Below, in pieces: positions 12,156 through 41,092 of a DNA stretch of 64,000 nucleotides. The DNA lies in IMG/VR virus record IMGVR_UViG_3300030380_006185, positions 64,001 through 128,000 of that record. One strand, 5' to 3'. The stretch's first letter is position 1. Every line of letters begins with the position of its first letter. The stretch is from a virus. The translations under genes and the position numbers were made by a program. Under the pieces are notes generated by a model that ran no database searches, was not told the DNA's origin, and saw only the letters and a program-made list of their open reading frames with translations.

Positions 12156-12737
12156 ATTTAGTTAGGAATTATTTCCGCATCTTTAATTGTTTCTACAAAT
12201 AAAAAATGAGAATCAGTTCGTAAAACATGATCAACTCCATATAGCCCATCTCTCCATATTTTAACATTCTCCATATTTAATACTCCTTCTTTATCTGTAA
12301 AGTGGGAAATTCTAATGTCTCTATGGACAAAATAACATTCACCACCATTTCTATAAAATTGTTTCATTTAATATTATATTCTTTTTTGTATTGTTCAATA
12401 AACGATTTACCAATCCCTATTTCTATTATTTCATAATTACTTGGTAATAAAGGATTTCTTTTTCTAGAATTTATAACCTCATCCACTCCATTTTCTGTAA
12501 TTAACATCCAGTATTTTTTTCCTGTTGGTTTTTTATAAACAACAACTGTGGTAATTTTTTTTTCTTCTGGTCTTCCTTTACTCATCATCTAAGGTATTAG
12601 CCACTAATAACACTCCAAATAATACTATAAATACCATCGCTATACTCATTCCTTTTTCCAATTATCTAGTATTACTGCTGCTATTAATAATAGAATACTA
12701 AAAGTTACTACTGCATATTCTATTGGGCTCATATTTA

Positions 12738-19326: not shown

Positions 19327-19968
19327 TTATTTTATATTATGTTTTTTTAAAAATTCATGTAAATGTACTCCATCTGCAATATGGACCCACCCATCAGTTA
19401 TATCTCTTATTATAAATCCATCTTTATCGGTGTACTTATCATAAATGTTAATAAATATGTACCCATTTTCTAGGCATTTCTCATTTAGTAATTTATTGAA
19501 ATATAAATATGCTAATTTCCTTTCCTCATCACTTCCCACGTAAGGAGTATCTATTTCTGGGCAATCACTTTCTCTTGAGGGTGGCGGCACATTATATACA
19601 CAAATGTTTTTTAGGTTTACTTTTAGTCTATCTAAATTTACTTTTATAGCATTAAAGTAGTTGTTGATTAGTCTATCAATAACGTCTTTGTATGTTTGAG
19701 ATTTATTAACGTGTTTGTAAACATGACACCTACAGTCTATTTCTCCAAAACTAAAAACTAGACTATCTCCATCTTCTAGGTCAAATTTACTCACATCTAC
19801 CAATTCAAGTCCTTTAGTTCCAAAACTATTGCAAATAATAGCACCCATATGATGATGCTTAACACCTTCAGGCCATCCATTCCTTTTACATTTGTCGCTA
19901 AATCCTATGTTTATATCTGATTGAAGCGATTCTCCTGCGTGACTATCTCCAAATGTGTGAATTGCCAT
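19327..19968 (-). CDS. SGNH-like hydrolase/esterase
   Basis: FGDSH block I, GEIDCR, DGWVH block V. Confidence 0.65.
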   Translation of the reverse strand: MAIHTFGDSHAGESLQSDINIGFSDKCKRNGWPEGVKHHHMGAIICNSFGTKGLELVDVSKFDLEDGDSLVFSFGEIDCRCHVYKHVNKSQTYKDVIDRLINNYFNAIKVNLDRLKVNLKNICVYNVPPPSRESDCPEIDTPYVGSDEERKLAYLYFNKLLNEKCLENGYIFINIYDKYTDKDGFIIRDITDGWVHIADGVHLHEFLKKHNIK

Positions 19969-19971
19969 TTT

Positions 19972-20214
19972 TTAATCGTTTAGTTTATCAAATCCCTTTC
20001 CTTTTTTCTTTTCTCTTTGTTTAAATGCCTTGAATTCATCCTCTTCCATAATCACTAAATCTGTCCAAGTATGATCTTTTGACCCAAACATTACAGGAAC
20101 ACCACTTTTTGCTCCAGTTGTAGAACAATTAACACAAACTTTTGTTCCAGGTAAAGCCTTTAACCTTAATGGGTTAATAGGTTTCTTACATTTTACACAC
20201 ATTTCATTTTTCAT
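19972..20214 (-). CDS. TraR/DksA C4 zinc-finger protein
   Basis: CVKCKKPINPLRLKALPGTKVCVNC. Confidence 0.8.
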   Translation of the reverse strand: MKNEMCVKCKKPINPLRLKALPGTKVCVNCSTTGAKSGVPVMFGSKDHTWTDLVIMEEDEFKAFKQREKKKGKGFDKLND

Positions 20215-20632
20215 CGTACCGTTTTAAAAATTTTACTAATTGTCGAGGATTTTCAATAATATGTTCTTTTCCATCTTCATCCTCAATTGGTAATATTTTG
20301 TCATCTGGGGTTATACTTTCAAATACCCACCATAAGATAATTTCACTTTTCTTCTCCCCATAAAGTTTAACAATTAGGTCTTTAATAATAAATAAATATT
20401 TTTCTTCATACGCAAATAAATTTACTCCTGCTTTACTAACCCCCATTGTTAAAGATTCTATCTCACAAAGTCTTTCAATTAGTTCTAATAAAAATTTATC
20501 TTCTTTATTTTTGATAGTTCTTTTATTTTTTTTTAGATTAATTCCTTTTCCAAGTTTTTTAACTACTTTCTCAAATCTTTCTTCACTCATAACAAACTTT
20601 TTTAAGATAATACAATATATAAAAAGTATTCC

Positions 20633-22737: not shown

Positions 22738-23525
22738 ATTTGTGTTATTGTTTGGTTTGGAAATTGATAATGACATACACCATCAATCATCATATTTTTA
22801 TGACTACAGTCATGTATTTGTTTATCTTTTATTTCTTTTAATAAGATTTTATATGATTTAGGTGATATTAAATGGTGTTTTGTTAAATCATTTCTTAGAA
22901 CACATTTTCTTAAAAATCTCTCACAGGTCCACCCATTAAAATACTCCCAGATTTTGCCATTATAATTTTTTATTTTTGAAATTGCTTTATAAGTCTCATT
23001 TAAATATTCTTTATCATTTAAATAATCAATTTTAGAAATGTTTATAAAATAAAAATTAGTTTGAGGAAAAAAATCATTTTTAATAATATCCTCAAAATTA
23101 AAATTATACTTAATCATTCCTCCATAACCTATACTACCTAAATAATAAAAATCAGCTTCTGGTATTTCTTTAAAGAAGATTTCATAATTTAATATAATAT
23201 CATTAGATGATTTACATAACCATGTTATATTATTTACTTTACAATAATCAACTAGTAAATTATCTAAATCAGCAGTTCCAAAGTTATGTCCTCTGTTAAT
23301 TTTAGAATCTAATATAATACAATCTGGAAAATATTTTTTCCATACTTCGTTATTTTGGTCTTGTAAATTGCAACTATAGTTTGTCGCTACTATTATATTT
23401 TTAAATTCTTCTAATACCTCTAAATTATATAATATATATTGTTCTAATGTCTCAAGATCATCTTCATTAGAAATATACCCTATAGTACCATAATATGTTT
23501 TATTAATAAGTTGCTTTAAATTCAT
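22734..23525 (-). CDS. Hypothetical protein, possible GT-A fold
   Basis: NRGH..G and CKSSNDII pattern within sugar cluster. Confidence 0.4.
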   Translation of the reverse strand: MNLKQLINKTYYGTIGYISNEDDLETLEQYILYNLEVLEEFKNIIVATNYSCNLQDQNNEVWKKYFPDCIILDSKINRGHNFGTADLDNLLVDYCKVNNITWLCKSSNDIILNYEIFFKEIPEADFYYLGSIGYGGMIKYNFNFEDIIKNDFFPQTNFYFINISKIDYLNDKEYLNETYKAISKIKNYNGKIWEYFNGWTCERFLRKCVLRNDLTKHHLISPKSYKILLKEIKDKQIHDCSHKNMMIDGVCHYQFPNQTITQI

Positions 23526-24117
23526 CTGGTGATATTAAAGTTAATAATTTAGTTCTATTAGTATTAAAATATTCCCATGAATCAATACCTTGTTGTAATT
23601 CATTTTTATCTATTTCAAAATCTTTTTGATTTTTTAAAATAACACCTACACCCCAATCATCATCTACCACAAAATGTTTATGTTGTGGATTATTTATTCT
23701 GGATTGTAAAAAGGCTTTATAAACATCTCCATTCCAATTTATTTGCCCATTTCTTGGAATTTGAGCATGTGCTTTAGTTGGTGGATTACAATCATGCATA
23801 GCAATTACACCTGTGTCAATACTATGTTTTAGACTATTATTAATATCTTTAATAACTTGAGTACTATGATGTAAACCATCAATGAATACTATATCATATT
23901 TAATATCAGGATGGTCTTTAATTAATTCAAAAAAATCATCTGATGTAACTGGATAGTTTACTTTGGGGTGTACTACACCTTCAGCTCCTGGGTCTACTCC
24001 ATCTTTATGAGGAATATTTACTGCTTCAATACATTCACCATTAAAAACTCCAATTTCTAAATAATTTACAAAGTTATTCTTTTTTATAAAAGTATTTATA
24101 ATATCAAATCTACGCAT
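23503..24117 (-). CDS. Class I SAM-dependent methyltransferase (Methyltransf_24-like)
   Basis: YLEIGV..G, GVDP, YDIVFIDGLH, MHDCNP. Confidence 0.85.
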   Translation of the reverse strand: MRRFDIINTFIKKNNFVNYLEIGVFNGECIEAVNIPHKDGVDPGAEGVVHPKVNYPVTSDDFFELIKDHPDIKYDIVFIDGLHHSTQVIKDINNSLKHSIDTGVIAMHDCNPPTKAHAQIPRNGQINWNGDVYKAFLQSRINNPQHKHFVVDDDWGVGVILKNQKDFEIDKNELQQGIDSWEYFNTNRTKLLTLISPDEFKATY

Positions 24118-24773
24118 TATATTAATGTATTATAAAATTCATTTTGTTTTTCTTGTTTTGTGAGTGTTTTAGGATGTTTTAAACACCATTCTTCTTCTGT
24201 TGGAAGGCAAGCTACTGTTTTATAACCTTCAAGAAATTCATGGATTTTTCGTGTCCACTTAATATTTTTAACATTTTTATAAACTCTCCATTGGTAATCA
24301 GGGAAATTAACCCAACCCTTATTATTTACCATCCAACCCCATTTATTAACATGTTCTTGTGTTAACCCTTCAACAGTATTAATTCTTGGAACTAAAATCA
24401 CATCAACATTGTTGTTTTCTAATACTTCTGGTAGGGCTTCTATCATATAAAGTGAAGGCATCTCATCTGCATCAATTTGGTAAATATAATCTCCTGAGCA
24501 ATATTTTGATATGTTGTTTTTAAAATTAGCAAAATGTCCATCCAATGCAAAATCACATATAAATTTAATTTGTCCTTCTCTATCTAAATTACCACAATAT
24601 AAATTAACTTCCATTTCAGGGGTTAATGGGGTATGGGATGCAGATTTTTTACATGCTTTGTCTTGTTGTACAACTATTTCATCTTGGGGTCGTTTGTTTC
24701 GGATTAAAAAATTGACTAAATTTTGTATTTCTACAAATTCATTACATACTGTTATAGCGTAACTTATTTTCAT
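24117..24773 (-). CDS. Glycosyltransferase family 2
   Basis: ISYAITVCNE, QIDADE, PDYQWR, IHE. Confidence 0.85.
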   Translation of the reverse strand: MKISYAITVCNEFVEIQNLVNFLIRNKRPQDEIVVQQDKACKKSASHTPLTPEMEVNLYCGNLDREGQIKFICDFALDGHFANFKNNISKYCSGDYIYQIDADEMPSLYMIEALPEVLENNNVDVILVPRINTVEGLTQEHVNKWGWMVNNKGWVNFPDYQWRVYKNVKNIKWTRKIHEFLEGYKTVACLPTEEEWCLKHPKTLTKQEKQNEFYNTLI

Positions 24774-25597
24774 TGAGCATGGTTTTCTAAATCATTTAAT
24801 AGTGCTAATGCTTCACCAAAATTAAAATAATGGGCTTTGCATATTCTTATGTAATACTCATTTGTTTTTGTTATTTGTCCTATACTAATTTCAATGTTTG
24901 TAACTTCTATAGCTTTATCTACTTTTAATAACTTTGTTTCTTTTTCTGTCATAACTTTTATTTAAAATGGTAAATCATCTACTTTATTATTTGATTTAAA
25001 ATGAGGAAGTAACAGATCTATTTTATCTTCTAATAATTTAACTCTATCTTCTAATAATCTAATTTTATCTTCTAAAGCTACTTGTGCCGCAGGTTTTTTA
25101 TTAAAATATTCATCTAAAAATGAAGTTGGGTACATACAAACATATCCTGCTGGTACTAGGGATGTTTCTATATCTTTTTTCCCAACATAAACACCCTTAG
25201 AAACAGCAGCAGCATGTACTTTTGTTCCTAAATCTTTTCCTGCTGGTCTACCTAAATAATCATATAAACTTTGGGTTTCTATAAGCATAACTTTTATTTT
25301 ACTATGTAAACCATTTCTTGTCCCTTTTTTTCTCCTTCAGTCCACTTTGCAATTCCATGATTTTTACGAATATCAGAGATAATTCTACCTGCTTCGTTTT
25401 CAGAAATGTTTTTAAAGGATAAAGTGGTTTGGATACATTTTTTCTTCTTAGGTTTAAGAACAACGTTCTCTTTTGTGCCAACATTTACTTGATTTACTTC
25501 AAAAAATACTGGTTCTTCTAAGTGTACTGTTAATCTTGTCATAACTTTTAATTTTTTAATATACTAAAATATACAAAACATTTATTAAGATACCTAC

Positions 25598-27381: not shown

Positions 27382-28821
27382 TTAGTATAATAATTCGTGA
27401 TTAATTGTATCTTCTTCAACTTCATTTACATTGATTAGCTCATATTTTTCGCGTGGAGTCCACGTGTTAAATAATTTATCTATCGCATTAATTGCGCGTT
27501 CTGCCATAGCTTCACTTGTAAGTCCTGCTTTTTCTACAGCCCACTCTCTACCTTCTTTACCTAAACGTTTTCTTTCATCTCTACCCATATAATATAAATT
27601 TTCAATTTGGATAGTTGCATCTTCAGGTTTGCACCTATCATCCCAAATATAAGGGGTTTTAGGAGAACCTTGTAAAGATCTATTTGTTGGGAATACTGGG
27701 AATGACCAACTTCCATGTTTTTGATATCTTCCAGTATGATTTGAAGGTATTTCAGGGGTTGGTTCATACCAATTCCCATCTTCATCTTCAAATCCCATTT
27801 GGTCTTGCATTCCACCAGTTACATTAGCTATAATTGGAGTACCTGCTAATATTGCTTCGGTTAATGTTAATCCCCAACCTTCATTTGAAGTTAATAATAT
27901 TTGAGCATCAGCTAAATTATACATAAAATTTAACTCTTTATTTCCTAACTTACTAGTAGAGAATAAAATTGCTTCAGGGTAATCTTTAAATAAAATTTTT
28001 CTTACTTCCTCAAGATTAGTTCCATGCTCACTTACTATTTCAGTATGGAGAATTAAAGAACACTTTTCTGCTTTTTCTTTAGGTAATTTATCTAAAAAGT
28101 ATCTAAACGCAAGCATTGTATCTGGGATTTGTTTTCTTCTAATGTTTCTTGAATTGAAAAATAAAACAAAATCTTTTTCTTTCCCACCAAAGATATGTGA
28201 TTTAAATTGTTCAAATTCTTTTAGATCAGATTCATTTTCAAGTGGGTAATAAATGTTATGATTTAAACCATGTGGAACATATTCTATTACTTTATTTTTT
28301 GCTTTATCTCCTAAAACAAGTTCATTTATAAGCTTTGTTTGTTTGGAAATAGCTAAAAGTGCATCACATGACTCGTAAAATGATTTATTATAAAGAGGAG
28401 TTGGATAATCATCCCAAATATTCAAATAAATAATTGGAACCTCTTGTCTAATTTCATTTTCCATAGCAAACAACCACTCAAAATATCTTGGATCAGTAAT
28501 AATCATTATAGCATCAGGCTTTTCAGTAGCCATTAATTGTCTAACTAAATTCCCATCTCCATAACCATCTACAGGATATAAAAATACTGAGGAATCTTCT
28601 ATTTCTGCATTTTTATTTGTATCGGAAGATAAATCAAATCTTTTACCTTTTTCAGGGTGTTTTATAGCTCCTGCTACATTAACCCAATTAAAGTGTTGGC
28701 AAGTATTAATTACCATTTCACGAGCAACTGTTGCTACTCCTGAGTGGACTCTAATATCATCGCAAATTAATAGGATTTTTTTTCTCTCATTTTGAGGGAG
28801 ATAACCAAATTTTTCTTTCAT
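27382..28821 (-). CDS. Glycosyltransferase family 4 (GT-B)
   Basis: HSGV, RNIRRK, NEGWGLTLTEAILAGTPII. Confidence 0.88.
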   Translation of the reverse strand: MKEKFGYLPQNERKKILLICDDIRVHSGVATVAREMVINTCQHFNWVNVAGAIKHPEKGKRFDLSSDTNKNAEIEDSSVFLYPVDGYGDGNLVRQLMATEKPDAIMIITDPRYFEWLFAMENEIRQEVPIIYLNIWDDYPTPLYNKSFYESCDALLAISKQTKLINELVLGDKAKNKVIEYVPHGLNHNIYYPLENESDLKEFEQFKSHIFGGKEKDFVLFFNSRNIRRKQIPDTMLAFRYFLDKLPKEKAEKCSLILHTEIVSEHGTNLEEVRKILFKDYPEAILFSTSKLGNKELNFMYNLADAQILLTSNEGWGLTLTEAILAGTPIIANVTGGMQDQMGFEDEDGNWYEPTPEIPSNHTGRYQKHGSWSFPVFPTNRSLQGSPKTPYIWDDRCKPEDATIQIENLYYMGRDERKRLGKEGREWAVEKAGLTSEAMAERAINAIDKLFNTWTPREKYELINVNEVEEDTINHELLY

Positions 28822-30040: not shown

Positions 30041-30066
30041 AAAAAAGCCTGTCAAAGACAAGCTTT
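30041..30066 (-). terminator. Rho-independent terminator
   Basis: AAAGCTTGTC-TTT-GACAGGCTTT then T-run. Confidence 0.7.
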
Positions 30067-30091
30067 AATTTAATTTATATAAGAGTTTAGT

Positions 30092-30436
30092 TTATTTTCT
30101 ATTATAATCGTCTTCAATTCTTACTATATCATCTTCTCCAAAATACGAGCCGTGTTGGACTTCTATAAAGACTAAATCTTTTTCTTCTTTATTTTCAACT
30201 CTATGTTTTACACCTTGAGGAATTAAAACAGTTTCTCCATACTCATAATTACGTATTTCATCATCAAGAGTTATAGTGGCAACCCCAGAAACAACTGTCC
30301 ACACCTCACTTCTTTTAAAATGATATTGGTAACTAAGTCTACCTCCTGGGATAACAGTTATTTGTTTTACTTTACATTTTTCATTTGAGAGGAGAATTTC
30401 GTATTTACCCCAAGGTCTACTTTCATTTTCTTCCAT
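30092..30436 (-). CDS. Mannose-6-phosphate isomerase type II cupin
   Basis: RPWGKY, LSYQYH..RSE, FIEVQHGSYFGEDDIVRIEDDY. Confidence 0.9.
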   Translation of the reverse strand: MEENESRPWGKYEILLSNEKCKVKQITVIPGGRLSYQYHFKRSEVWTVVSGVATITLDDEIRNYEYGETVLIPQGVKHRVENKEEKDLVFIEVQHGSYFGEDDIVRIEDDYNRK

Positions 30437-30442
30437 AGTGTT

Positions 30443-30865
30443 TTATTTTTTTAATAGCCAACTACTAGATTGTATCTTGTCACCAAGCCCATCTAAAAGT
30501 TTTATCCCTAATTCATTGCAAATTGGACTTTCTGGGATAGATTGGTTGTTTTGGTCTCCTCCATTGGCAAAATATAATTCCCATGTTTTACCATATTCAT
30601 TATGGATATGTTTTAGGGTTTCTATTTGCGTTCTGTCTTCATCTATAGAAATTAAAGCATGTCCAACATATTTTATAGAACTTACTATTTCTAATCTTTC
30701 ATTTTCTTCTTGGAATTCTTTTGATCCCTTTAATTCTCTTTGTAGGTCAGAATTAACTATAGCTATGACATAATCATCACTAAATTCTTTAGCTTTTCTT
30801 AAAAGTTCTAGGTGTCCTTTATGGATGGGGTTAAAATATCCACTAACTATAACTACTTTTCTCAT
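30443..30865 (-). CDS. Cytidylyl/adenylyltransferase (TagD/RfaE-like)
   Basis: SGYFNPIHKGH, FANGGD, KIQSSS. Confidence 0.88.
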   Translation of the reverse strand: MRKVVIVSGYFNPIHKGHLELLRKAKEFSDDYVIAIVNSDLQRELKGSKEFQEENERLEIVSSIKYVGHALISIDEDRTQIETLKHIHNEYGKTWELYFANGGDQNNQSIPESPICNELGIKLLDGLGDKIQSSSWLLKK

Positions 30866-30867
30866 TT

Positions 30868-30936
30868 TTAACAATTACAGCAGTTACAGCTACAACTAGT
30901 TTTACATTTACATGTTTGGCAGTTACAATCTTTCAT
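30868..30936 (-). CDS. Metallothionein-like microprotein (22 aa, 9 Cys), not in ORF track
   Basis: MKDCNCQTCKCKTSCSCNCCNC*; exactly fills the gap between flanking genes. Confidence 0.7.
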   Translation of the reverse strand: MKDCNCQTCKCKTSCSCNCCNC

Positions 30937-30942
30937 TTTTTT

Positions 30943-31179
30943 TTATTTTATGATTCCGGCTCTCACCATCATTTTTTTTCTTTCAGCTAGTGCTTCTTCT
31001 CCACCCATTATAGCTTCAAAATCAATCATCCCTAACTCACCAGCAACTCTACTCAATTCAATCATATTATTTGCTACTTTACGGAGTTCTTCATCAGATG
31101 AAGCATCATCTTTAGCAAATTCTAGTACTCGAAGGAGTAAAGGGATTGATAATTCAACTGTAGTTTTTGGGTTTCTCAT
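30943..31179 (-). CDS. Hypothetical protein with C-terminal KMMVRAGI motif
   Basis: Motif shared with 31179 and 37283 proteins. Confidence 0.7.
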   Translation of the reverse strand: MRNPKTTVELSIPLLLRVLEFAKDDASSDEELRKVANNMIELSRVAGELGMIDFEAIMGGEEALAERKKMMVRAGIIK

Positions 31180-31565
31180 TATGCAAATTTTGCTCTTACT
31201 GCAGCTCCTAAATCCGCATCATTAGAATGTTTTTTAATCATTTTTCTAACTTCTCCTCTAATAGCTTCTGCACTAGCATCAATTCCTACTGCTTCTTCCA
31301 TTGTATCATCTTCTTCATAGTATGATTCTTTTACATCATCTTCCTCATACATACCTTCTTTAACTTCTTTTTCCTCTTTTTCTTCTCCTTCATTCATAAA
31401 ATGCTCAAAAGCCATTTCATAATCTGATTTTTCACGAGGTGGGATTTGGGTAATTGCTTCAACTCCAACGATTCCACCAGCCATGTAGTGTTCGTTTAAG
31501 TTTTCTTTTTCTTCATTAACAGGCACTCCTGCTAATTTTTGCATTCGATTTAATTCTTTTGACAT
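31179..31565 (-). CDS. Acidic protein with RMQKLAG motif; candidate virion internal/scaffold protein
   Basis: Glu-rich, repeated (L/V/M)xE sites, preceded by ATATTTATAA motif. Confidence 0.5.
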   Translation of the reverse strand: MSKELNRMQKLAGVPVNEEKENLNEHYMAGGIVGVEAITQIPPREKSDYEMAFEHFMNEGEEKEEKEVKEGMYEEDDVKESYYEEDDTMEEAVGIDASAEAIRGEVRKMIKKHSNDADLGAAVRAKFA

Positions 31566-31992
31566 TTTATAGTATTTTATTATAAATATTAACCTTTTAT
31601 TGTTCTTTCAATTTTTTCAAGATAAAGTATAGCATCCATATGTTCTTGTTTAGCATGTTCTATCCAATCTAGGATGCCTAAGTCTGTTCTATCTAAATCT
31701 GTATTGTATTTTTCTTTTCCAAATTTAGCTCTTTCAATAAATTGATCAATAACTGAATCAACTATTGAGTCTGTTTTTTCAATTTTTCTTTTTTTCATGT
31801 ATGTACCAAGGTAAAGTGTCTTTTTTCTTTTTAGGTTTTTCATACCAACCTACATTAGGAAGAATTGTACCTAAATGACTTTTATCTAATAATTCAATGT
31901 TATAGGTTTTAGGAGATTTAATTTCTATTATTTCTCCTGTATAGCTTTCTCCTAAAAATGTACAATGTACTTTATCTCCTATTTTTAGTTTT

Positions 31993-32451
31993 TTACCCAC
32001 TTTTTAATAGTTTTTTAGATTCTTTTTCATCAACACCCATAGTATGGAGTATATTTAGGGTTTCTTTCTTTTTTAAAACTTCTAAGTATCTAGCAGCTGT
32101 AAATTTACCACATTGAAAATAGTCACTTAAAATTTCTACAAGTTGTGGATTAGGGGATTTTTTCTTACTTTTTATATACTTTAAGAAAACCTTCTTTTTT
32201 GGAATCATTTCTCTATAAATATTATAGGTTTGTATTTTATTATCGTAAGGTATAGTTTGGACATGATTAGTCAATTCAACGTAATTTACATTCATAGACA
32301 CAAACCGATGAATCATATAGGAGTTAAAACAATCCCATGATTCATCAGTAAAACAATTAGCAGGTGTTTTATATAGAGTGATTTCATTTAACCACCCCCA
32401 TATATTTTTTATCTGCTTTCTGCCTGGTCTAGGGTATCTACTAGTCTTCAA
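31993..32451 (-). CDS. Clamp-loader small subunit (T4 gp62-like)
   Basis: YMIHRFVSM, KKKVFLKYIK, YFQC..A..Y; position near large subunit. Confidence 0.7.
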   Translation of the reverse strand: MKTSRYPRPGRKQIKNIWGWLNEITLYKTPANCFTDESWDCFNSYMIHRFVSMNVNYVELTNHVQTIPYDNKIQTYNIYREMIPKKKVFLKYIKSKKKSPNPQLVEILSDYFQCGKFTAARYLEVLKKKETLNILHTMGVDEKESKKLLKSG

Positions 32452-32705
32452 TAGTCATATCTTTATATTCTTCTCTAATTTCAGGTGGAATAGAATCTTT
32501 AAGAATTTTCTTTGATTCTAAATCATAAAATACAGGGATAGGCATAAGCATATCTTCATCTGTTCCTGTTACAAATTTGGATACTTTACGAATTACTACC
32601 GCTTGTCCAAATAATTTACCTCCATCGAATCCCTCTACTGCTGTAGTGTTTGTTAGGTCAATGTTTGGTTGTTGTGGGGGTGCTTGATTTTGCATTATTT
32701 ATTAT

Positions 32706-33614
32706 TTATTTAATTGTTTCTATTATTTTGGCTATTGCCGACATTATATTAATCTCTTTATCAATTCGGAAATTTGCTTGAAAAAGATGTTCATTTAGTA
32801 TTATAGTTACTGATCCTTCCTTATCTTTAGCATATACTGAAATATGTTCAAATAGTAAGCGGTATAGTTCTTCAAAATCTTTTACACCACTATCTGCTAT
32901 AATTTGTCTTATTTTAATCCAGTTTTTTGTTTGGGTAAGTTCTTTTAGTACTTCTTTAGTATAATTGTTTGAAGCTAAAACTGATTCATTTATTTTAAGT
33001 TTACCATCTTGGTTAGATAATTGGATTGTATTCAACATTTTTCTAACATCAGGATAGTTTTTATTTACTATAGTAGCTACTTCTTTAACATCATGTGAAA
33101 TACTTTCTTTTTCCATTACATCTGCTAAATGTTTTGCAATAACTGATTTTGATGGTGGAACAATTTTAAGTACTTGACAACGTGATTGTATTGGATCAAT
33201 AATTCTCTCAACAAAATTACACGTTAATATAAAGCGAGTTGAACGAGAAAATGTTTCAATTACGTTTCTAAGTGCTGCTTGTCCATTTATAGTAATAAAA
33301 TCTGCTTCATCTAAGATAACTACTTTTATACCATTCCAAGAAGCAGCAGAAGCGAATCCTTTTACTTTTTCTCTGATTGTATCAATTCCATTTTCATCAC
33401 TTGCGTTAATATAAAGATGGTCACAGTTTAGATTTTTAACTATAAGTTTAGCTAGTGTAGTTTTACCTGTTCCAGCAGGTCCATAGAATATAAAGTTTTG
33501 GATGTCGTTTTGGTCAAGATATTTTTGAATTGTCTCTTTGACTTGTTCATTTCCTACATAATCTTGTAAAACAGTAGGACGGTATTTTTCAACTAACAAA
33601 GTGTTGTCTTTCAT
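32706..33614 (-). CDS. Clamp-loader ATPase (RFC / T4 gp44-like)
   Basis: VEKYRP, GPAGTGKT, NASDENGID, ILDEAD, QSRC. Confidence 0.95.
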   Translation of the reverse strand: MKDNTLLVEKYRPTVLQDYVGNEQVKETIQKYLDQNDIQNFIFYGPAGTGKTTLAKLIVKNLNCDHLYINASDENGIDTIREKVKGFASAASWNGIKVVILDEADFITINGQAALRNVIETFSRSTRFILTCNFVERIIDPIQSRCQVLKIVPPSKSVIAKHLADVMEKESISHDVKEVATIVNKNYPDVRKMLNTIQLSNQDGKLKINESVLASNNYTKEVLKELTQTKNWIKIRQIIADSGVKDFEELYRLLFEHISVYAKDKEGSVTIILNEHLFQANFRIDKEINIMSAIAKIIETIK

Positions 33615-33665
33615 AACTTATTTTTATAACCTAATTATACAAAAACTTTTACCAATAGGCAAGTT

Positions 33666-34331
33666 TTATTTTTTAAAATATTGATTATAAGTTGTTTCTA
33701 CAAATTCATCATAAACAGGATGAAACATATATTCATCGATTCCCCTTCTAAGGATATCATCAGTTGTTATAAGAAATTCTCTTGGGGTGTATGTACCAGC
33801 ATCATCTCTTATCCATTGTTTAATGTCTTCTTCAGTAAAACCTCTATATGTAGCAATATCAACTTTTTTAAATTTTATATAATCTTTTATATCCTTAACT
33901 ATTTTTGATTGTTTTGAATATAGAAAACTTTTTAATTCTTCAGGAGTACCAAGTTTATTTTCATTAATTGCGCTATGTATTTCCTCTAAAGTATCTATTT
34001 CTAATTCACTTTCAAATCCATACCTATTAGAAAGTTTAGTTAAAATATTTTTAACTTTAATTTTATCTTTTCTATTAACTAGTATTTTAAGATTTTTATC
34101 ACTAATCCCATGATCATTTTCTACTGCAGCGTCAAAAGATTGAAGAAGGGATTCAACGTCATTTCTAAATTTTTTATATTTTTTTTCAAAATATGGTTCC
34201 CCTACTTTATCACTGTAGGTCATTAAATACAAGTGGACTAAATCATCTTTTGGTTTATAATCTATTGTACGAAGTTCTAATACCTTAGATATTTCCTCTT
34301 TGATAAGTTGTTTTAGTTGGGAATGTTTCAT
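33666..34331 (-). CDS. Leader-array protein, leader A (MKHSQLKQLIKEEI)
   Basis: Shared N-terminus, unique C-terminus. Confidence 0.85.
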   Translation of the reverse strand: MKHSQLKQLIKEEISKVLELRTIDYKPKDDLVHLYLMTYSDKVGEPYFEKKYKKFRNDVESLLQSFDAAVENDHGISDKNLKILVNRKDKIKVKNILTKLSNRYGFESELEIDTLEEIHSAINENKLGTPEELKSFLYSKQSKIVKDIKDYIKFKKVDIATYRGFTEEDIKQWIRDDAGTYTPREFLITTDDILRRGIDEYMFHPVYDEFVETTYNQYFKK

Positions 34332-34333
34332 TT

Positions 34334-34945
34334 TTATCTTTTTGGAAGTCTTCTCTTTAAAAGTAACTTATAGTCATAATCAACCATTTTATCTAAACCT
34401 GAATGGAATCCACGATTTCCACCCTCACGGTAGAAAAAGAAATATAATTTATGTTTAGGTGAATAATAATATTCAGATGAAAGTGATGTTGACAATGGTG
34501 TTTTTTTATAATTTTGTTCTATAGCTTGTTTAAATTCATCACGTGTCATACCATCAGTAGCTACATAAAGTTGTGTATGACCTAATGCCCCACTTGAAGT
34601 TCCTTCAACGTATGCTTTTATTGCTATACCCTTTTCTTCTAGTTCTTTAGCTAAAGCAGAAGCATCGTTCCATACTTTACTATCAGTACGAACTTCATCA
34701 ATTGGAAGAGAATTAACTTGAGCTTCTGCATCTCTTACCATTTTAAAGAATTTAGGTAAATCTTTTTTACTAATTTTAAGGTATGCGTCTCCACCATATG
34801 AATCACTACCTATAATAAAATACAAGTTACCATCAACACCAAATTTTAAATTTGCTACACCCAACATCTTAGATAAATGTTTACCTTCATTTAATACGCT
34901 ACGTATTTCCTCTTTAATAAGTTTTTTTAGTTGTGAGTGTTTCAT
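34334..34945 (-). CDS. Leader-array protein, leader A
   Basis: MKHSQLKKLIKEEIRSVLNE. Confidence 0.85.
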   Translation of the reverse strand: MKHSQLKKLIKEEIRSVLNEGKHLSKMLGVANLKFGVDGNLYFIIGSDSYGGDAYLKISKKDLPKFFKMVRDAEAQVNSLPIDEVRTDSKVWNDASALAKELEEKGIAIKAYVEGTSSGALGHTQLYVATDGMTRDEFKQAIEQNYKKTPLSTSLSSEYYYSPKHKLYFFFYREGGNRGFHSGLDKMVDYDYKLLLKRRLPKR

Positions 34946-35274
34946 CTTATTTTATTTAAAATGCTGTTAAAAATTTCTATCTCATCAGAAAAGAAATTAT
35001 CTCCCTTATTTTGCATTTCTTCAACCTTCATTTCTAGAAAATAAATTAATTTTCTTCTCTCTATAGGAGTAAGCTCAAGCGATTCATTTAATAGCTTATT
35101 TTCAGCTAATTGTACTTTTTTATTATAATGTGATTTTAGAACCATATTTATAGCATCTCTAAACTTCCAAAAGGGAGTTGAATATACTAAAGTTCTAATT
35201 TTACCTGCTAAATCAATTGTTGAAGCATTAGATATTTCTTCTTTAATAAGTTTTTTTAGTTGTGAGTGTTTCAT
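34942..35274 (-). CDS. Leader-array protein, leader A with internal leader-B fragment
   Basis: MKHSQLKKLIKEEI ... LAENKLLNE. Confidence 0.85.
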   Translation of the reverse strand: MKHSQLKKLIKEEISNASTIDLAGKIRTLVYSTPFWKFRDAINMVLKSHYNKKVQLAENKLLNESLELTPIERRKLIYFLEMKVEEMQNKGDNFFSDEIEIFNSILNKIR

Positions 35275-35756
35275 GATACGCTTTTTGTAATCTTCAGTTG
35301 TTTTAAATCTTTTAAATATTCATCTGTCATTACAAGAATTACTCCCATTTTGTAATGTGGTTGTTGAGAGGTAAATGAAAGTTCAGTTACTTTTGGGTTG
35401 AATCTAGGAGGTTTGTTATTGTAATATTGTATTTGATATACACCAAATTCTTTTCCTTCACCTTCTTTATCGGGGTGAGGGTCTTGTGGATAGTTCCCTT
35501 CAAATTGGTTATATTGAATATGTGAAAACATTGGAGATGTTGTTTTTTCAGGTGTCATCAAGTTCAATGTAGCTTCTTTCATACTACTAACTGCGTTTGG
35601 GAAGTATCGTTTAATAACTTCCATATCTTCAGCATCAGGTTTATTTCGTTCAACGTATTTTACAATTTTATCACCTGAAAAATTTTTGTAGGTGGCTTCA
35701 TTTAATGCGCTACGTATTTCCTCTTTGATGAGTTGTTTTAATTCGGAGTGTTTCAT
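35271..35756 (-). CDS. Leader-array protein, leader A
   Basis: MKHSELKQLIKEEIRSALNE. Confidence 0.85.
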   Translation of the reverse strand: MKHSELKQLIKEEIRSALNEATYKNFSGDKIVKYVERNKPDAEDMEVIKRYFPNAVSSMKEATLNLMTPEKTTSPMFSHIQYNQFEGNYPQDPHPDKEGEGKEFGVYQIQYYNNKPPRFNPKVTELSFTSQQPHYKMGVILVMTDEYLKDLKQLKITKSVS

Positions 35757-35757
35757 C

Positions 35758-35997
35758 TTATTTTTGTGAAAATCGAAAATATTTTCTTATTGTATCCTTA
35801 ATATCCAACTCATTATTTTTCCAGTATTTTTCATCAAAAGAATCATAATCATCACCAGGTTGTGCTTCTAACCCCTTTTCATATGCTACTTGAAAATGAA
35901 TTTTAAGAGCATTTGTTAATGAGGTATCTGGGAATTGGGTATCTTCATTTAATAGCTTATTTTCAGCTAAATATTTTTTTAAGTCAAAGTTTTTCAT
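35758..35997 (-). CDS. Leader-array protein, leader B (MKNFDLKKYLAENKLLNE)
   Basis: Shared N-terminus. Confidence 0.85.
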   Translation of the reverse strand: MKNFDLKKYLAENKLLNEDTQFPDTSLTNALKIHFQVAYEKGLEAQPGDDYDSFDEKYWKNNELDIKDTIRKYFRFSQK

Positions 35998-36003
35998 TTT
36001 ATT

Positions 36004-36240
36004 TTATATATTGTTACTAATTTCTTTTAATTTTGAAATAATTGCTTTAATTTCTTTACTATAAAGTTGTATATTTTCTTTTTCATCAAACATGTATTCT
36101 CTAACATTTGAATTTAAAATGTTATTTAACTGTTCAATAGATCGATCAAATGCATCTTTAAAGGTATTAGGTTTATTATAAAAGTTTTCATTTAATAGCT
36201 TATTTTCAGCTAAATATTTTTTTAAATTAAAGTTTTCCAT
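36004..36240 (-). CDS. Leader-array protein, leader B
   Basis: MENFNLKKYLAENKLLNE (start 36240). Confidence 0.85.
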   Translation of the reverse strand: MENFNLKKYLAENKLLNENFYNKPNTFKDAFDRSIEQLNNILNSNVREYMFDEKENIQLYSKEIKAIISKLKEISNNI

Positions 36241-36241
36241 T

Positions 36242-36793
36242 TTAATCAAATTTATAATATTTCTTTTTGTTCCTTATAGTACCTAATAATATGTTATTTA
36301 TTACGTCTGTAACTGTTTTTAAACTTCTATCTAATTCCTCTTCAGATTGATCATTTTTTACTGCAGTCATAAAAACATCATCTAATGCTTTTACTATGGA
36401 TTTTCTTAGTGGATTATATAATTCTACTGATACTCCAGATACATAATTTCGGTGCATTGGATTAGCTTCAATCTCATTCACTTCATTTAGTTCTCCTTCA
36501 CTACGTAAATGTCCTACTACATATTCTTTATATCTTTCAATTATATCTAATATAGTAAAATTGTCTGGAAATTGGTTTGCTGTAGTTCTTTGTAACATTT
36601 CTTTATCAGTGTATCTGTTGGAATATTCAGGGTGTGCCTTGTCAAACCCATCCATTGAACCAAACTGAGCCTTCCATGATTTTCTTTTATATGCTTCTGA
36701 TCCTTTATTTTCGGGGTCTTGGTTAGGATCATATTCATTTAAAGCATTATGTACTTCTTCTTTAATAAGTTGTTTTAGTTCTGATGGTTTCAT
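36242..36793 (-). CDS. Leader-array protein, leader A
   Basis: MKPSELKQLIKEEVHNALNE. Confidence 0.85.
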   Translation of the reverse strand: MKPSELKQLIKEEVHNALNEYDPNQDPENKGSEAYKRKSWKAQFGSMDGFDKAHPEYSNRYTDKEMLQRTTANQFPDNFTILDIIERYKEYVVGHLRSEGELNEVNEIEANPMHRNYVSGVSVELYNPLRKSIVKALDDVFMTAVKNDQSEEELDRSLKTVTDVINNILLGTIRNKKKYYKFD

Positions 36794-36999
36794 TAATAGT
36801 ATCCTCCTCTATATTTTAAAGTTTTTGCTATTGGCTCTAGTTTTGATGCTAAAGCAACTTTACCATCTTTAGATAAAATATCACCTAAATCTTTTACTGC
36901 TTTAACAATTCCATCAATTTTTTCTAATTCTTCATCAAAATTTTCTTCTTTCACTAGCTTATTTTCAGCTAAGTATTTTTTTAAATTAAATTCTTTCAT
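36793..36999 (-). CDS. Leader-array protein, leader B
   Basis: MKEFNLKKYLAENKLVKE. Confidence 0.85.
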   Translation of the reverse strand: MKEFNLKKYLAENKLVKEENFDEELEKIDGIVKAVKDLGDILSKDGKVALASKLEPIAKTLKYRGGYY

Positions 37000-37010
37000 T
37001 TTAATTAAAT

Positions 37011-37286
37011 TTACATTTTATATATTGTTGGCAAGTCATTTTTTGATACAGTATCACCTAATTCAATTACCCAATAAGCACTTTCTGGTAGACCCATTTC
37101 TTTTCCAATAACCGCTCGTATTTCTTCTAAAGTTGCTTCTCTGGTAAGTTCAAGAAAATCTCCATAGGATTCATAACGATCTATACTATATTTTAGTACT
37201 CTGTATATTCCAGGTTTGAAGATTTCTGTTTCCTCATTTAATAGCTTATTTTCAGCTAAGTATTTTTTTAAATTAAATTCTTTCAT
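37011..37286 (-). CDS. Leader-array protein, leader B
   Basis: MKEFNLKKYLAENKLLNE. Confidence 0.85.
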   Translation of the reverse strand: MKEFNLKKYLAENKLLNEETEIFKPGIYRVLKYSIDRYESYGDFLELTREATLEEIRAVIGKEMGLPESAYWVIELGDTVSKNDLPTIYKM

Positions 37287-38236
37287 AATCCTGCTCTTTT
37301 TTGCATTAAATATAGATCTAAATCAAATTCTATACCTTCTTTTAATGACGCCTTTTTAATTAATAGTTTTTGTCTTTGATCAGGTGAAATACCTGTTACA
37401 ACTAGTTTATATTTTCTTTTACCATCTACCTCAACTGGTTCAGTTTTATAATTTGCAGATGGAACATCTCCAATTTCTTTTTGAAATTGTTTTCTAATTT
37501 TTTCTACTTTATCTAAAGAATCAGCCATAGCAGAAAGTGGTGGAACAACTTTTTTTTCAGGTTTTTTAATTACCTCACCTGCATCGTCTGTTTTTTCAAC
37601 ATCAACAATTTCATACTCTAAACCTGAGTTATCCATTATTGTTTTCATTACTTTTTGAAGGTATGGTTTTGGTTTGTAAGGGCTGTTTTCTAATGGGAAA
37701 ATAATTTTACCATCTTTTACATTAAAATGAACATCTTTTTCTAATCTACCAGCATACTTTTTTAAGTTAGCTGGTGTTTTTAATGGGAAATAATTTTTAC
37801 CATATCTACCAATAAAATCTTTTGGGAGTTGTTTTCCCTCTAATGTATATAAATAATCTTCTATTTCACCTTCATTTCCTGCAGTTTGCCATTCTTCAAA
37901 TCCTGCTTTTGCTTGCTCCATTGCTTTTTCATAATCTTCGGGAGCTCGTTTTTTGATATCAATAAGTTTAAACCCTTTTGCATCATTAGATCTTTCTGTC
38001 CAATCATTCCAAGCTGCTCTTGTTTTTTGAGCAGGAACAGAAGGTCCAAATGCTTTTTGTATAGCTTTTGGGTCACGTAGGTTTTGAGCATAGATACCAT
38101 AGTTGTCTATATTATCTAAAGCGTCTAATGCAGCTGGTATATCTGTAGGTTGGATAGCAAGGTCGTATTGAACCTTAAGTTGCTTCATTCCATCTTCTTC
38201 ACCCTCTACCTCTCTTAAAATATCTGTTAATTTCAT
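37283..38236 (-). CDS. Leader-array protein, leader C (MKLTDILRE), C-terminal MQKRAGL
   Basis: 317-aa ORF within array. Confidence 0.8.
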   Translation of the reverse strand: MKLTDILREVEGEEDGMKQLKVQYDLAIQPTDIPAALDALDNIDNYGIYAQNLRDPKAIQKAFGPSVPAQKTRAAWNDWTERSNDAKGFKLIDIKKRAPEDYEKAMEQAKAGFEEWQTAGNEGEIEDYLYTLEGKQLPKDFIGRYGKNYFPLKTPANLKKYAGRLEKDVHFNVKDGKIIFPLENSPYKPKPYLQKVMKTIMDNSGLEYEIVDVEKTDDAGEVIKKPEKKVVPPLSAMADSLDKVEKIRKQFQKEIGDVPSANYKTEPVEVDGKRKYKLVVTGISPDQRQKLLIKKASLKEGIEFDLDLYLMQKRAGL

Positions 38237-38496
38237 ATTTGGGCAATAGTTGGGTGTGGCCTATAATCAGGGTATTTTTCTTTAAAATGAGTTTTTAAAT
38301 GATGAGCTATTGCTAAATATGCGTTTTCTGCTTTTTCTGCTGTACGAATATCGTCTGATTTAAGAGCAAGAATAGCATTTGAAAATTTTGCTTGAGCTAT
38401 TGCTAAGTTTTCTGCTGCTCTACTTTCAAATTGGCCTATATACTGTTCCTCAAGTTTATTTTCAGCTAAATATTTTTTTAGATTAAAATTGTCCAT
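38233..38496 (-). CDS. Leader-array protein, leader B
   Basis: MDNFNLKKYLAENKLEE. Confidence 0.85.
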   Translation of the reverse strand: MDNFNLKKYLAENKLEEQYIGQFESRAAENLAIAQAKFSNAILALKSDDIRTAEKAENAYLAIAHHLKTHFKEKYPDYRPHPTIAQI

Positions 38497-38508: not shown

Positions 38509-38518
38509 TTATAAATAT
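38509..38518 (-). promoter_or_regulatory. Putative late promoter ATATTTATAA
   Basis: Same 10-mer at 31580,17808,16136 and a variant at ~56087, each shortly upstream of a start codon. Confidence 0.6.
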
Positions 38519-38520
38519 AT

Positions 38521-38550
38521 AAAAAAGGGGACCAATTACATTGGATCCCC
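38521..38550 (-). terminator. Rho-independent terminator ending chaperonin operon
   Basis: GGGGATCCAAT-GTA-ATTGGTCCCC then TTTTTT. Confidence 0.75.
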
Positions 38551-38800: not shown

Positions 38801-40735
<1,935 letters not shown>

Positions 40736-40739
<4 letters not shown>

Positions 40740-41092
40740 AATTCTACTTTGTTTAATAATGTTTCTAATCCGTTTCTTACTTCTTCCCAAGAACTAATAT
40801 AGTCTTGGATTGAACTATATTCTCCTGGGTTGTTGTAAAATTTTTCTTTTGCTATTCTGTTTAAGGCATTTCTAAAACTTGAATAATAACCTACAGTTTT
40901 TTCAACTTCTTTACCTGTTGCTTTTCTTCCAGCAAACCCACGAGTAGAAATTGATTTTTCTATCACAGTAAAGTTTGTTGCATCTTTAGAAATATAAAAG
41001 GGTTCCATTAGTGGATCTTTTATAATACAATAAGATAAATTTTGTGTTTGTGTGTCTTTTGAGGGACGTCCTCTTTTTGTAGTTTTTGGCAT
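40736..41092 (-). CDS. Hypothetical protein with AT-hook-like KRGRP
   Basis: 118-aa ORF upstream of groES. Confidence 0.7.

What the first reader, a model, noticed from the sequence alone, without database searches (positions are those of the whole stretch)
33666..38496. Polymorphic array of 11 genes with constant N-terminal leaders and unrelated cargo domains (candidate capsid-loaded effector system)
Seen: five ORFs begin MK(H/P)S(Q/E)LK(Q/K)LIKEE(I/V), five begin M(K/E/D)(N/E)F(N/D)LKKYLAENKL and one begins MKLTDILRE. Similarity stops abruptly, typically at LNE, and the rest of each protein is unrelated. The leaders are also 40-60 bp DNA repeats. The array is insulated by a terminator and preceded by the putative late motif. 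Established: T4 internal proteins carry a short capsid-targeting leader cleaved by gp21 after (I/L)xE and are injected, with IPI* inhibiting GmrSD. Inference: an expandable library of packaged and injected effectors, e.g. anti-defence proteins, with two or three interchangeable address tags.
Basis: partly seen in the sequence, partly recalled or inferred. Interest (0 to 1): 0.85.

Follow-up and report, generated by a model that had tools for sequence, protein, structure and literature searches.

The report
Leader-tagged capsid cargo gene array
A distant T4-like phage has 11 adjacent late genes for unrelated proteins that each start with one of three short tags ending in its head protease's cut motif. 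They are most likely loaded into the capsid as T4 loads its internal proteins, but packaging, cleavage and injection are untested.

Summary
Eleven tightly packed minus-strand genes (38496-33666) carry leader A (MKHSQLKQLIKEEIxxxLNE, 5 genes), leader B (MKEFNLKKYLAENKLLNE, 5) or leader C (MKLTDILRE, 1), followed by unrelated orphan cargo.

The 156-kb genome is a distant T4-type phage with a Gp23 capsid protein and a Peptidase_S77 (gp21-type) prohead protease. The capsid site that aligns with T4's E65|A66 cut reads LVTE|A. Both main leaders contain (L/I)xE at residues 10-12 and again at 17-20, where similarity stops.

The array is one unit. It lies behind a terminator and the motif ATATTTATAA, which also precedes the sheath, tube, adaptor and head genes.

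Close relatives with 88-97% identical flanks hold 3-7 genes here, with swapped, fused or novel cargo. In IMG/VR, 131 leader-bearing ORFs fall into 95 cargo clusters, and three clusters occur with either leader. A leader-A profile finds 1,280 protein clusters. All five near-complete leader-bearing contigs encode S77.

Best reading (0.65): these are T4-style capsid-targeting propeptides on packaged cargo, with LNE joints that also serve as recombination points. Injection and anti-defence roles are untested. Cargo searches and folds gave no function.

This is a new variant of a known kind. The scan has reported similar arrays in other genomes.

The parts
38521..38550 (-). Intrinsic terminator ending the upstream GroES-GroEL-87aa unit: hairpin 38550-38527, then U6 at 38526-38521
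   Evidence: Sequence. RNA fold -13.6 kcal/mol, z -2.5.
38509..38518 (-). Late-promoter-like motif ATATTTATAA, 12 nt upstream of the g1 ATG
   Evidence: 22 copies on the coding strand against 3 on the other. All are intergenic, 2-24 nt before a start codon. They precede both tail sheath genes, the tube, a virion protein, the adaptor and a head-module gene.
38233..38496 (-). g1, 87 aa, leader B (MDNFNLKKYLAENKLEE|)
   Evidence: Orthologues at 67-92% identity in L015 and L016.
37283..38236 (-). g2, 317 aa, leader C (MKLTDILRE|). The conserved member of the array. Its C-terminus, ...LMQKRAGL*, resembles the scaffold C-terminus.
   Evidence: 520 metagenomic homologues, none with a Pfam domain. AF2 pLDDT 66, with residues 1-22 disordered. 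C-terminal motif.
37011..37286 (-). g3, 91 aa, leader B (…AENKLLNE|)
   Evidence: In relatives L035 and L044 the same cargo follows an extra block of about 160 aa.
36793..36999 (-). g4, 68 aa, leader B (…AENKLVKE|)
   Evidence: The cargo is absent from the relatives examined.
36242..36793 (-). g5, 183 aa, leader A (MKPSELKQLIKEEVHNALNE|)
   Evidence: 78% orthologue in L035.
36004..36240 (-). g6, 78 aa from the ATG at 36240, leader B
35758..35997 (-). g7, 79 aa, leader B
   Evidence: In L044 its cargo is fused to the C-terminal module of g9.
35271..35756 (-). g8, 161 aa, leader A
34942..35274 (-). g9, 110 aa, leader A, with an internal leader-B remnant AENKLLNE at residues 57-64 (35106-35083)
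   Evidence: The module after the remnant is 93% identical to the C-terminus of a B-tagged protein in L044.
34334..34945 (-). g10, 203 aa, leader A, with two cargo modules
   Evidence: 7 homologues in 5.8 billion proteins. Modules recombine at ...LNE joints.
33666..34331 (-). g11, 221 aa, leader A, module 1, an internal leader-A remnant EEIHSAINE at residues 116-124 (33986-33960), then variable module 2
   Evidence: 16 homologues. Only module 1 is conserved, and the break falls at the remnant. AF2 domain limits agree.
33634..33662 (-). Sigma-70-like promoter (TTGCCT-17-TATAAT) that starts the next unit, the clamp loader. It marks the downstream limit of the array.
31179..31589 (-). Related tagged gene outside the array: 128 aa, MSKELNRMQKLAGVPVNE... 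(tag D), with its own ATATTTATAA at 31589-31580

Best explanation
The array is a single late transcription unit of cassette genes. Their products are recruited into the assembling prohead by short N-terminal propeptides, the functional equivalents of the T4 capsid-targeting sequence. They are then freed from those propeptides by the phage's gp21-type (Peptidase_S77) prohead protease, which cuts after Glu in (L/I/V)-x-E. The likely cut sites are IKE/LAE at residue 12 and LNE and variants at residues 17-20. The mature cargo would stay in the head with the DNA, as T4 IPI-III and Alt do. Some of it may be ejected into the host. The conserved leader DNA and its LNE joint also act as recombination points. 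They allow cassettes to be swapped, re-tagged or fused in frame, and a protease site at each joint would resolve such fusions. Shown here: the anatomy, the protease and capsid families, the shared late-type motif, the polymorphism and the tag interchange. Inferred: binding to the core, cleavage, packaging and delivery.
For: 1) T4-type head. The MCP matches Pfam Gp23 at 1e-74. Peptidase_S77 matches at 3.7e-26, above the cut-off, between the portal and the scaffold. The T4 gp23 cut E65|A66 aligns with LVTE61|A62.
2) Both leaders carry (L/I)xE at residues 10-12 and at the point where similarity ends. This matches the 10-20-residue T4 propeptides and their redundant sites (PMC5694885, PMC9026906).
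3) Across IMG/VR, a [LIVM]xE follows leader B in 36/37 ORFs, against 1-2/37 in control windows. It follows leader A in 66/94, against 2-10/94. P2 and spacing vary.
4) Head-module proteins have the same design: MDRIKEIVRNKLKE|...YLLIKE|G, protease MNKELLIE|T and scaffold ...DLLKE|A. Immuto encodes MKKSQIVKAVQEVLEE... between its portal and protease.
5) The ATATTTATAA motif is shared with the sheath, tube, adaptor and head genes. The array is one tight operon with gaps of -4 to +11 nt.
6) The locus holds 3-7 leader genes in relatives with 88-97% identical flanks, 11 here. This parallels the polymorphic T-even ip loci (PMC3012670, PMC9026906).
7) The peptide, not just the DNA, is under selection. 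Synonymous:nonsynonymous differences are 29:20 and 20:17 in the leader cores. A back-translated degenerate pattern finds the tags in 43 and more than 119 IMG/VR stretches.
8) Three cargo clusters occur with either A or B, joined at LNE.
9) S77 is present in 5/5 leader-bearing contigs that are at least 90% complete. In fragments it is found about as often as their completeness predicts.
10) AF2 leaves the g2 leader disordered and models the g11 leader as a low-confidence helix (pLDDT about 40) outside the confidently folded module.
Against: There are no virion proteomics, N-terminal data or expression data for this phage or any relative. Every step from binding to delivery rests on analogy. The leaders are not alignable with the T4 CTS MKTYQEFIAE beyond a general pattern. 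The mature cargo is not basic (pI 4.6-9.2), unlike T4 IPI-III. Leader B is not amphipathic as a single helix, and leader A only weakly so. g9 lacks the second site. (L/I)xE is a short motif in a K/E/L/I-rich proteome; LNE is enriched only 2.2-fold overall. The 'late' label for ATATTTATAA rests only on the genes it precedes. S77 is common among large marine phages, so 5/5 co-occurrence is modest evidence.
Confidence: 0.65

Rival explanations
1. The proteins are targeted and cleaved, but they are not effectors. They are accessory prohead-core or scaffold components, like T4 gp67/gp68, or inert filler. They would be degraded or expelled during maturation, or stay in the head for a structural or DNA-packing role, and would have no function in the next host.
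For: The same leaders occur on proteins in the head module. g2 ends in the scaffold's C-terminal motif. Several mature products would be only 50-73 aa. No cargo shows any effector-like domain.
Against: Essential core parts should be conserved. Here gene content turns over between relatives with 88-97% identical flanks, and most cargo is rare (7 and 16 homologues in 5.8 billion proteins). That pattern fits accessory arms-race genes better. g2 alone fits this rival well.
Confidence: 0.15
2. The leaders are a shared docking helix for some other common partner, not a capsid address. The partner could be a host hub protein, the adjacent phage GroEL/GroES, or a self-association module. On this reading the (L/I)xE is incidental to a K/E/L-rich helix.
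For: The array lies directly beside GroES/GroEL. Leader A is helical and mildly amphipathic. The motif LIKEE necessarily contains IxE.
Against: This does not explain the second, variably spaced [LIVM]xE exactly at the cargo joint, or its reuse at internal module joints. It also does not explain the leaders on head-module proteins, the late-type motif or the link with S77-encoding genomes. Sequence-unrelated leaders A and B substitute for each other.
Confidence: 0.1
3. The repeats are conserved mainly as nucleic acid. They would be recombination joints or translation-initiation regions for cassette genes, and the encoded peptide would have no function of its own.
For: Leaders are 85-89% identical DNA repeats. 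Recombination within them is evident from swaps, fusions and remnants. Genes overlap as ATGA or TAATG, which suggests translational coupling.
Against: Conservation starts at the ATG, not in the upstream region (35-39% identity). Synonymous changes are over-represented. The peptide is kept across very distant contigs with different codons, and 1,280 clusters at 50% identity match a protein profile, mostly at residue 1. A recombination role is compatible with the best explanation and is included in it.
Confidence: 0.07

Closest known systems
Phage T4 / T-even internal proteins (IPI, IPII, IPIII and the polymorphic ip loci) with the capsid targeting sequence MKTYQEFIAE, cleaved by gp21
   Same: A short (10-20 aa) conserved N-terminal leader sits on otherwise unrelated small proteins. 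The leader ends in hydrophobic-x-Glu. The phage has a gp21-family protease and a Gp23 capsid. The locus varies between close relatives while the leader is kept (PMC3012670, PMC9026906).
   Different: The leader sequences are not recognisably homologous. There are three or four tag classes instead of one. There are 11 tandem genes here, with about 13 more tagged ORFs elsewhere by a loose pattern (24 of 243 in all), against 3 IPs in T4. The cargo is not basic. Internal leader remnants and in-frame cassette fusions are seen. Nothing has been shown experimentally.
T4 Alt, gp67, gp68 and gp24, and the ejection / inner-body proteins of phiKZ, 201phi2-1 and SPN3US, processed by gp21-like proteases
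   Same: Propeptides are removed after Glu at a short motif. Propeptides carry redundant sites. Paralogues share identical N-termini (PMC5694885). Enzymes can be cargo; one IMG/VR cargo gives a weak Tox-ART-HYD1 hit (6e-4), reminiscent of Alt.
   Different: Giant-phage propeptides are mostly longer than 100 aa and use A/S/G-x-E. Here the tags are 12-20 aa and use L/I/V-x-E.
Scaffolding-protein C-terminal coat-binding peptides (e.g. P22) and encapsulin cargo-loading peptides
   Same: A short terminal peptide suffices to address cargo to the inside of an HK97-fold shell. Here the scaffold's C-terminal RMQKLAGIIK recurs at the C-terminus of g2 and near the N-terminus of other small proteins.
   Different: This is analogy only. 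No binding has been shown. The N-terminal copies are followed by a putative protease site, which encapsulins lack.
Polymorphic toxin / effector systems (conserved N-terminal trafficking region, variable C-terminal cargo, cassette arrays)
   Same: The architecture and evolutionary mode match: a constant address, hypervariable cargo, and recombination at the junction.
   Different: The delivery vehicle is different (a phage head). No toxin or immunity pairs are present, and the tags are far shorter.

Membership tests
T4-type CTS-tagged head-internal proteins | The phage encodes a gp21-family (Peptidase_S77) prohead protease and a Gp23-type capsid | tested here: met
   PF03420 at 3.7e-26, above the cut-off, at G000 11751-12221. 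PF07068 at 1e-74. Gene order is portal, X, X, protease, scaffold, MCP.
T4-type CTS-tagged head-internal proteins | A conserved 10-20-residue N-terminal leader shared by otherwise unrelated proteins | tested here: met
   In IMG/VR, 131 leader ORFs fall into 95 cargo clusters.
T4-type CTS-tagged head-internal proteins | The leader ends in the protease motif (hydrophobic-x-Glu) that the same phage uses on its capsid protein | tested here: met
   The MCP site aligned to T4 E65|A66 is LVTE|A. Leaders end LNE, LEE, VKE or LRE. Positional enrichment is 36/37 and 66/94 against controls of 11% or less.
T4-type CTS-tagged head-internal proteins | The leader is actually removed by the protease | not testable with these tools
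   Needs N-terminal or semi-tryptic peptide mass spectrometry, or an in vitro cleavage assay.
T4-type CTS-tagged head-internal proteins | The proteins are present inside proheads or virions and are ejected with the DNA | not testable with these tools
   No proteome was found for this phage or for immuto.
T4-type CTS-tagged head-internal proteins | Sequence homology of the leader to the T4 CTS (MKTYQEFIAE) | tested here: inconclusive
   Only visual comparison with the CTS as recalled from memory. The shared features are MK at the start, a hydrophobic residue at P3 and Glu at P1. Peptides of 10-20 aa cannot be tested for homology.
T4-type CTS-tagged head-internal proteins | The locus is polymorphic between close relatives while the leader is retained | tested here: met
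   Six related contigs were compared; the four that span the whole interval hold 3-7 leader genes against 11 here, with flanks 88-97% identical. Cargo is replaced, extended or fused.
T4-type CTS-tagged head-internal proteins | Expressed when proheads assemble (late) | tested here: inconclusive
   g1 is preceded by ATATTTATAA, which it shares with structural genes. There are no transcript data.
T4-type CTS-tagged head-internal proteins | Small basic DNA-associated proteins (as T4 IPI-III) | tested here: not met
   Predicted mature pI is 4.6-9.2, mostly neutral or acidic. This is not a requirement for packaging: T4 Alt and foreign CTS fusions are packaged (PMC9026906).

The most novel reading that the evidence does not exclude
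The tags form a portable 'capsid address code' shared by a large clade of uncultured T4-type phages, estimated at roughly 150-380 kb. It has at least four tag classes (A, B, C, and a D tag copied from the scaffold's own C-terminal peptide). In this code an (L/I/V)xE joint serves as both protease site and recombination point. Any ORF could then be captured, re-tagged, strung into polyproteins and delivered with the DNA. This would be a phage counterpart of polymorphic effector systems, with more than a thousand cargo families.
Probability: 0.35. Interest if true: 0.8.

Novelty: new variant of a known kind. Interest (0 to 1): 0.6.

Why it matters
If the tags work as inferred, these phages carry much larger and more fluid sets of virion-delivered proteins than the three internal proteins of T4. 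The leader sequence alone would then identify packaged cargo directly in metagenomes; at least 1,280 protein clusters match leader A. That would give a defined list of first-minute infection proteins, such as candidate anti-defence or host take-over factors, in phages of marine and freshwater Bacteroidota, whose cargo is otherwise entirely orphan. It would also give new short tags for loading foreign proteins into non-coli phage heads. Finally, it would be a clear case of a protease site doubling as a module joint in gene shuffling.

Tried and rejected
Family searches found nothing above threshold for the array proteins: Pfam on all 11, PHROGs on g1-g10, PADLOC on all but g7. Pfam on 95 IMG/VR cargo representatives gave only stray hits: DUF285 on a likely non-leader provirus ORF, DUF6576, and a weak Tox-ART-HYD1.

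AF2 of g2 (pLDDT 66) and g11 (pLDDT 54) gave no informative fold. Foldseek against PDB found no hit at E<=0.001. VIA-wide gave only generic ferredoxin-like matches with Z<=7.6. The atlas search gave only ACT/ferredoxin-like shapes. The protein-atlas feature search on g10 gave no usable hit.

Complex prediction of the scaffold with the g10 leader returned no verdict and is not used as evidence either way.

tblastn against cultured phages found no match for a 22-aa leader or for g2. Immuto was shown to carry tags only by a direct pattern scan.

A megablast of the region found only GroEL-level similarity to Bacteroides phages.

The hydrophobic-moment test did not support an amphipathic helix for leader B, and support for leader A was marginal.

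No virion proteome for immuto or its relatives was found in the literature. Repoila et al. 1994 (PMC395341) is not held, so it is cited only through reviews.

The idea that the cargos are fast-diverged paralogues was rejected. Lengths range from 68 to 317 aa, there is no pairwise similarity, and the predicted secondary structures differ.


Full report
**What is there**

The window is bases 64001-128000 of a 156,273-bp virus record. It has 29.8% G+C, and 153 of 160 ORFs of 100 aa or more lie on the minus strand. Between the GroES/GroEL genes (40790-38801) plus a conserved 87-aa ORF and the clamp-loader gene (33614-32706) lie 11 minus-strand ORFs.

- g1, g3, g4, g6 and g7 start M(K/E/D)(N/E)F(N/D)LKKYLAENKL (leader B).
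- g5, g8, g9, g10 and g11 start MK(H/P)S(Q/E)LK(Q/K)LIKEE(I/V) (leader A).
- g2 starts MKLTDILRE (leader C).

Gaps between genes are -4 to +11 nt. With the leaders removed, the proteins (68-317 aa) show no convincing similarity to one another. None matches Pfam, PHROGs or PADLOC.

**The repeat is real and begins at the ATG**

Within a class the first 45 nt are 85-89% identical. The 45 nt upstream are 35-39% identical and the region downstream 28-35%. In the leader cores, synonymous differences are as common as nonsynonymous ones (29:20 for A, 20:17 for B). That points to selection on the peptide.

Genome-wide, [LIVM]xx[LIVM][LIVM][KR]E[EV] occurs 11 times, always in the first 25 residues of an ORF. 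A looser form is about 8-fold enriched at N-termini. About 24 of 243 ORFs carry an A-like, B or D tag. They include genes upstream of the terminase: 19662-20486, 22820-23590, 23844-24278, 24278-25435 and 28065-28793.

**The phage is a distant T4 relative**

- The MCP (G000 8558-10213) matches Pfam Gp23 at 1e-74.
- The nearest cultured relative is Flavobacterium phage vB_FspM_immuto, at 60% MCP identity. Microcystis phage Mel-JY01 and Rhodothermus phage RM378 follow.
- A Peptidase_S77 (T4 gp21) protease gene lies between the portal and a very acidic scaffold-position gene, as in T4.
- When the MCP N-terminus is aligned with a T-even gp23, the T4 maturation site (...FLTE65|A66, position from my own knowledge) falls on ...QLVTE61|ASATNQ. 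In immuto it falls on ...QIVSE|A.

The expected specificity is therefore hydrophobic-x-Glu.

**The leaders look like substrates**

Leaders A and B have (L/I)xE at residues 10-12 (IKE, LAE). They have a second site at residues 17-20 (LNE, LEE, VKE, LE), exactly where similarity stops. Leader C has LRE at residues 7-9.

T4 head propeptides are 10-20 residues long, target proteins to the core and are removed by gp21. Redundant sites within propeptides are known (PMC9026906, PMC5694885).

Proteins encoded inside the head module have the same design:

- a 143-aa protein, MDRIKEIVRNKLKE|MSATNQGGASF, whose predicted mature end mimics that of the MCP;
- a 608-aa protein, ...YLLIKE|G;
- the protease, MNKELLIE|T, which parallels the LIE-9 of T4 gp21 (PMC9026906);
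- the scaffold, ...DLLKE|A.

Immuto encodes a 73-aa protein, MKKSQIVKAVQEVLEE..., between its portal and protease. It also has a tandem set gp095-gp092 with A-, A-, C- and B-type starts.

**Expression context**

A hairpin (38550-38527, -13.6 kcal/mol) followed by U6 ends the upstream unit. ATATTTATAA follows at 38518-38509.

This motif occurs 22 times on the coding strand and 3 times on the other. Every coding-strand copy is intergenic and lies 2-24 nt before a start codon. It precedes both tail-sheath paralogues, the tail tube, a virion structural protein, the head-tail adaptor and a head-module gene. It also precedes g1 and five other tagged genes. I read it as the late promoter element; this is inference. 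The clamp-loader gene after g11 has its own sigma-70-like promoter.

**Relatives**

Back-translated leader patterns were scanned against IMG/VR.

- Leader B gave 43 stretches with 47 matches, 46 of them at ORF N-termini.

Six contigs are close relatives, with flanking GroEL, clamp loader and other genes 88-97% identical. The four that span the whole interval hold 3, 4, 5 and 7 leader genes in this position, against 11 here. In them:

- g2 is always kept;
- the g3 cargo sits behind an extra block of about 160 aa;
- the g7 cargo is fused to the C-terminal module of g9;
- several cargos are new.

Among near-complete leader-bearing genomes, ours has the most copies: 6 B-type against 0-2, and 9 K-x-LIKE matches against 1-3.

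**Interchangeable tags and module joints**

The 131 distinct leader ORFs in the fetched loci fall into 95 cargo clusters. Three clusters occur with either A or B, spliced at the LNE.

A [LIVM]xE follows leader B in 36/37 ORFs, against 1-2/37 in control windows. It follows leader A in 66/94, against 2-10/94. P2 and spacing are variable.

g9 contains an internal AENKLLNE. g11 contains an internal EEIHSAINE, exactly where its homologues switch to other C-terminal modules. One of those modules is a stand-alone leader-A gene in contig L035. The g10 modules also recombine at ...LNE.

A leader-A profile finds 1,280 clusters (50% identity) in 1.84 billion representatives at E<=0.001. Of the best 150, 134 match from residue 1-4. 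Some hold two or three complete in-frame leaders, for example ...ET-MKKSELQRIIREEISKVMNE-.... The (L/I)xE joint thus marks module boundaries whether it is terminal or internal. That is what a cleavage site which doubles as a recombination point would produce.

**Association with the protease**

All 5 leader-bearing contigs that are at least 90% complete encode S77, as do 7 of the 9 large contigs held. Ten contigs of 42-94 kb are 15-55% complete fragments of large genomes, and 3 of them include S77, about the number expected from their coverage. No complete tag-bearing genome without S77 was seen. Size-matched controls were not run.

**A further tag**

The motif RMQKLAG(I/L/V) ends the scaffold-position proteins (...ARMQKLAGIIK* here...WQKLAGIIK* in immuto). 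It also ends g2 and its homologues. Near the N-terminus of other small proteins it is followed by (I/V)xE, including the late-motif gene at 31565-31179. I found it independently.

**Function of the cargo**

This is unknown. g2 has 520 homologues and no Pfam domain. Its AF2 model has a disordered leader and a C-terminal ferredoxin-like domain, with no significant structural neighbour. g11 module 1 is a small alpha/beta domain. The rarity and turnover of the cargo fit accessory, conflict-driven genes. The anti-defence role and injection rest only on the T4 IPI* precedent (PMC3012670).

**Verdict**

The capsid-targeting and cleavage reading is the best-supported mechanism (0.65). The effector or anti-defence part is open. 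The principle is known from T4. The new elements are the tag families, their number and interchangeability, the scale, the LNE module joints with polyprotein-like fusions, and the scaffold-derived tag. The scan has reported similar leader arrays in several other uncultured T4-like genomes.

Noticed in passing
window 31179-31565 (-); G000 10240-11628 (-); window 37283-37306 (-): The motif (F/L)xRMQKLAG(I/L/V) sits at the extreme C-terminus of the scaffold-position protein and of g2. It also sits near the N-terminus of a 128-aa late gene, where it is followed by VNE. In the fetched IMG/VR loci it is C-terminal 25 times, N-terminal 16 times and internal 5 times. It may be a coat-binding peptide reused as an address tag.
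   Followed up: partly
L001:14124-14555 (-) and L001:8558-10213 (-): The 143-aa head-module protein reads MDRIKEIVRNKLKE|MSATNQGGASFTPGEG. Its predicted mature N-terminus closely mimics that of the MCP (LVTE|ASATNQGGGTFSVGQGE).
   Followed up: no
window 38801-40790 (-): The phage encodes GroEL (547 aa) and GroES directly upstream of the array. They are conserved in all relatives. In contig L016 the GroEL gene is split into 371-aa and 157-aa ORFs.
   Followed up: no
L006:1662-3356 (-) and L006:3405-5129 (-): There are two adjacent tail-sheath paralogues (564 and 574 aa, both phrog_23 at about 1e-75). Each has its own ATATTTATAA motif.
   Followed up: no
L054, L063, L094, L114 (IMG/VR loci): In a few proteins the leader-A core occurs at the extreme C-terminus (...LKKLIKEEVKKILK*, 14 residues before the stop). 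This suggests the tag can also work, or be captured, C-terminally.
   Followed up: no
G000 30041-30586 (-), 33140-33901 (-), 30589-33156 (-): Enzyme-like proteins also start with A-like tags: a HAD-type protein (MSNLFELYKLIKE|N...DMDGV) and a P-loop protein (MVSLVKLLKE|I...GPAGSGKS). The 855-aa protein has four (L/I)NE sites. The 608-aa head-module protein has five.
   Followed up: partly
L066:12872-13501 (-), L123, L136 (IMG/VR loci): Some leader-A cargos share a GTLYHFT-type motif. One IMG/VR cargo representative, not identified by the search, gives a weak Tox-ART-HYD1 Pfam hit (6e-4). These may be packaged ADP-ribosyltransferases analogous to T4 Alt.
   Followed up: no
whole G000 proteome: LNE is the fifth most over-represented tripeptide (46 observed against 21 expected). 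IKE is also about 2-fold enriched.
   Followed up: partly
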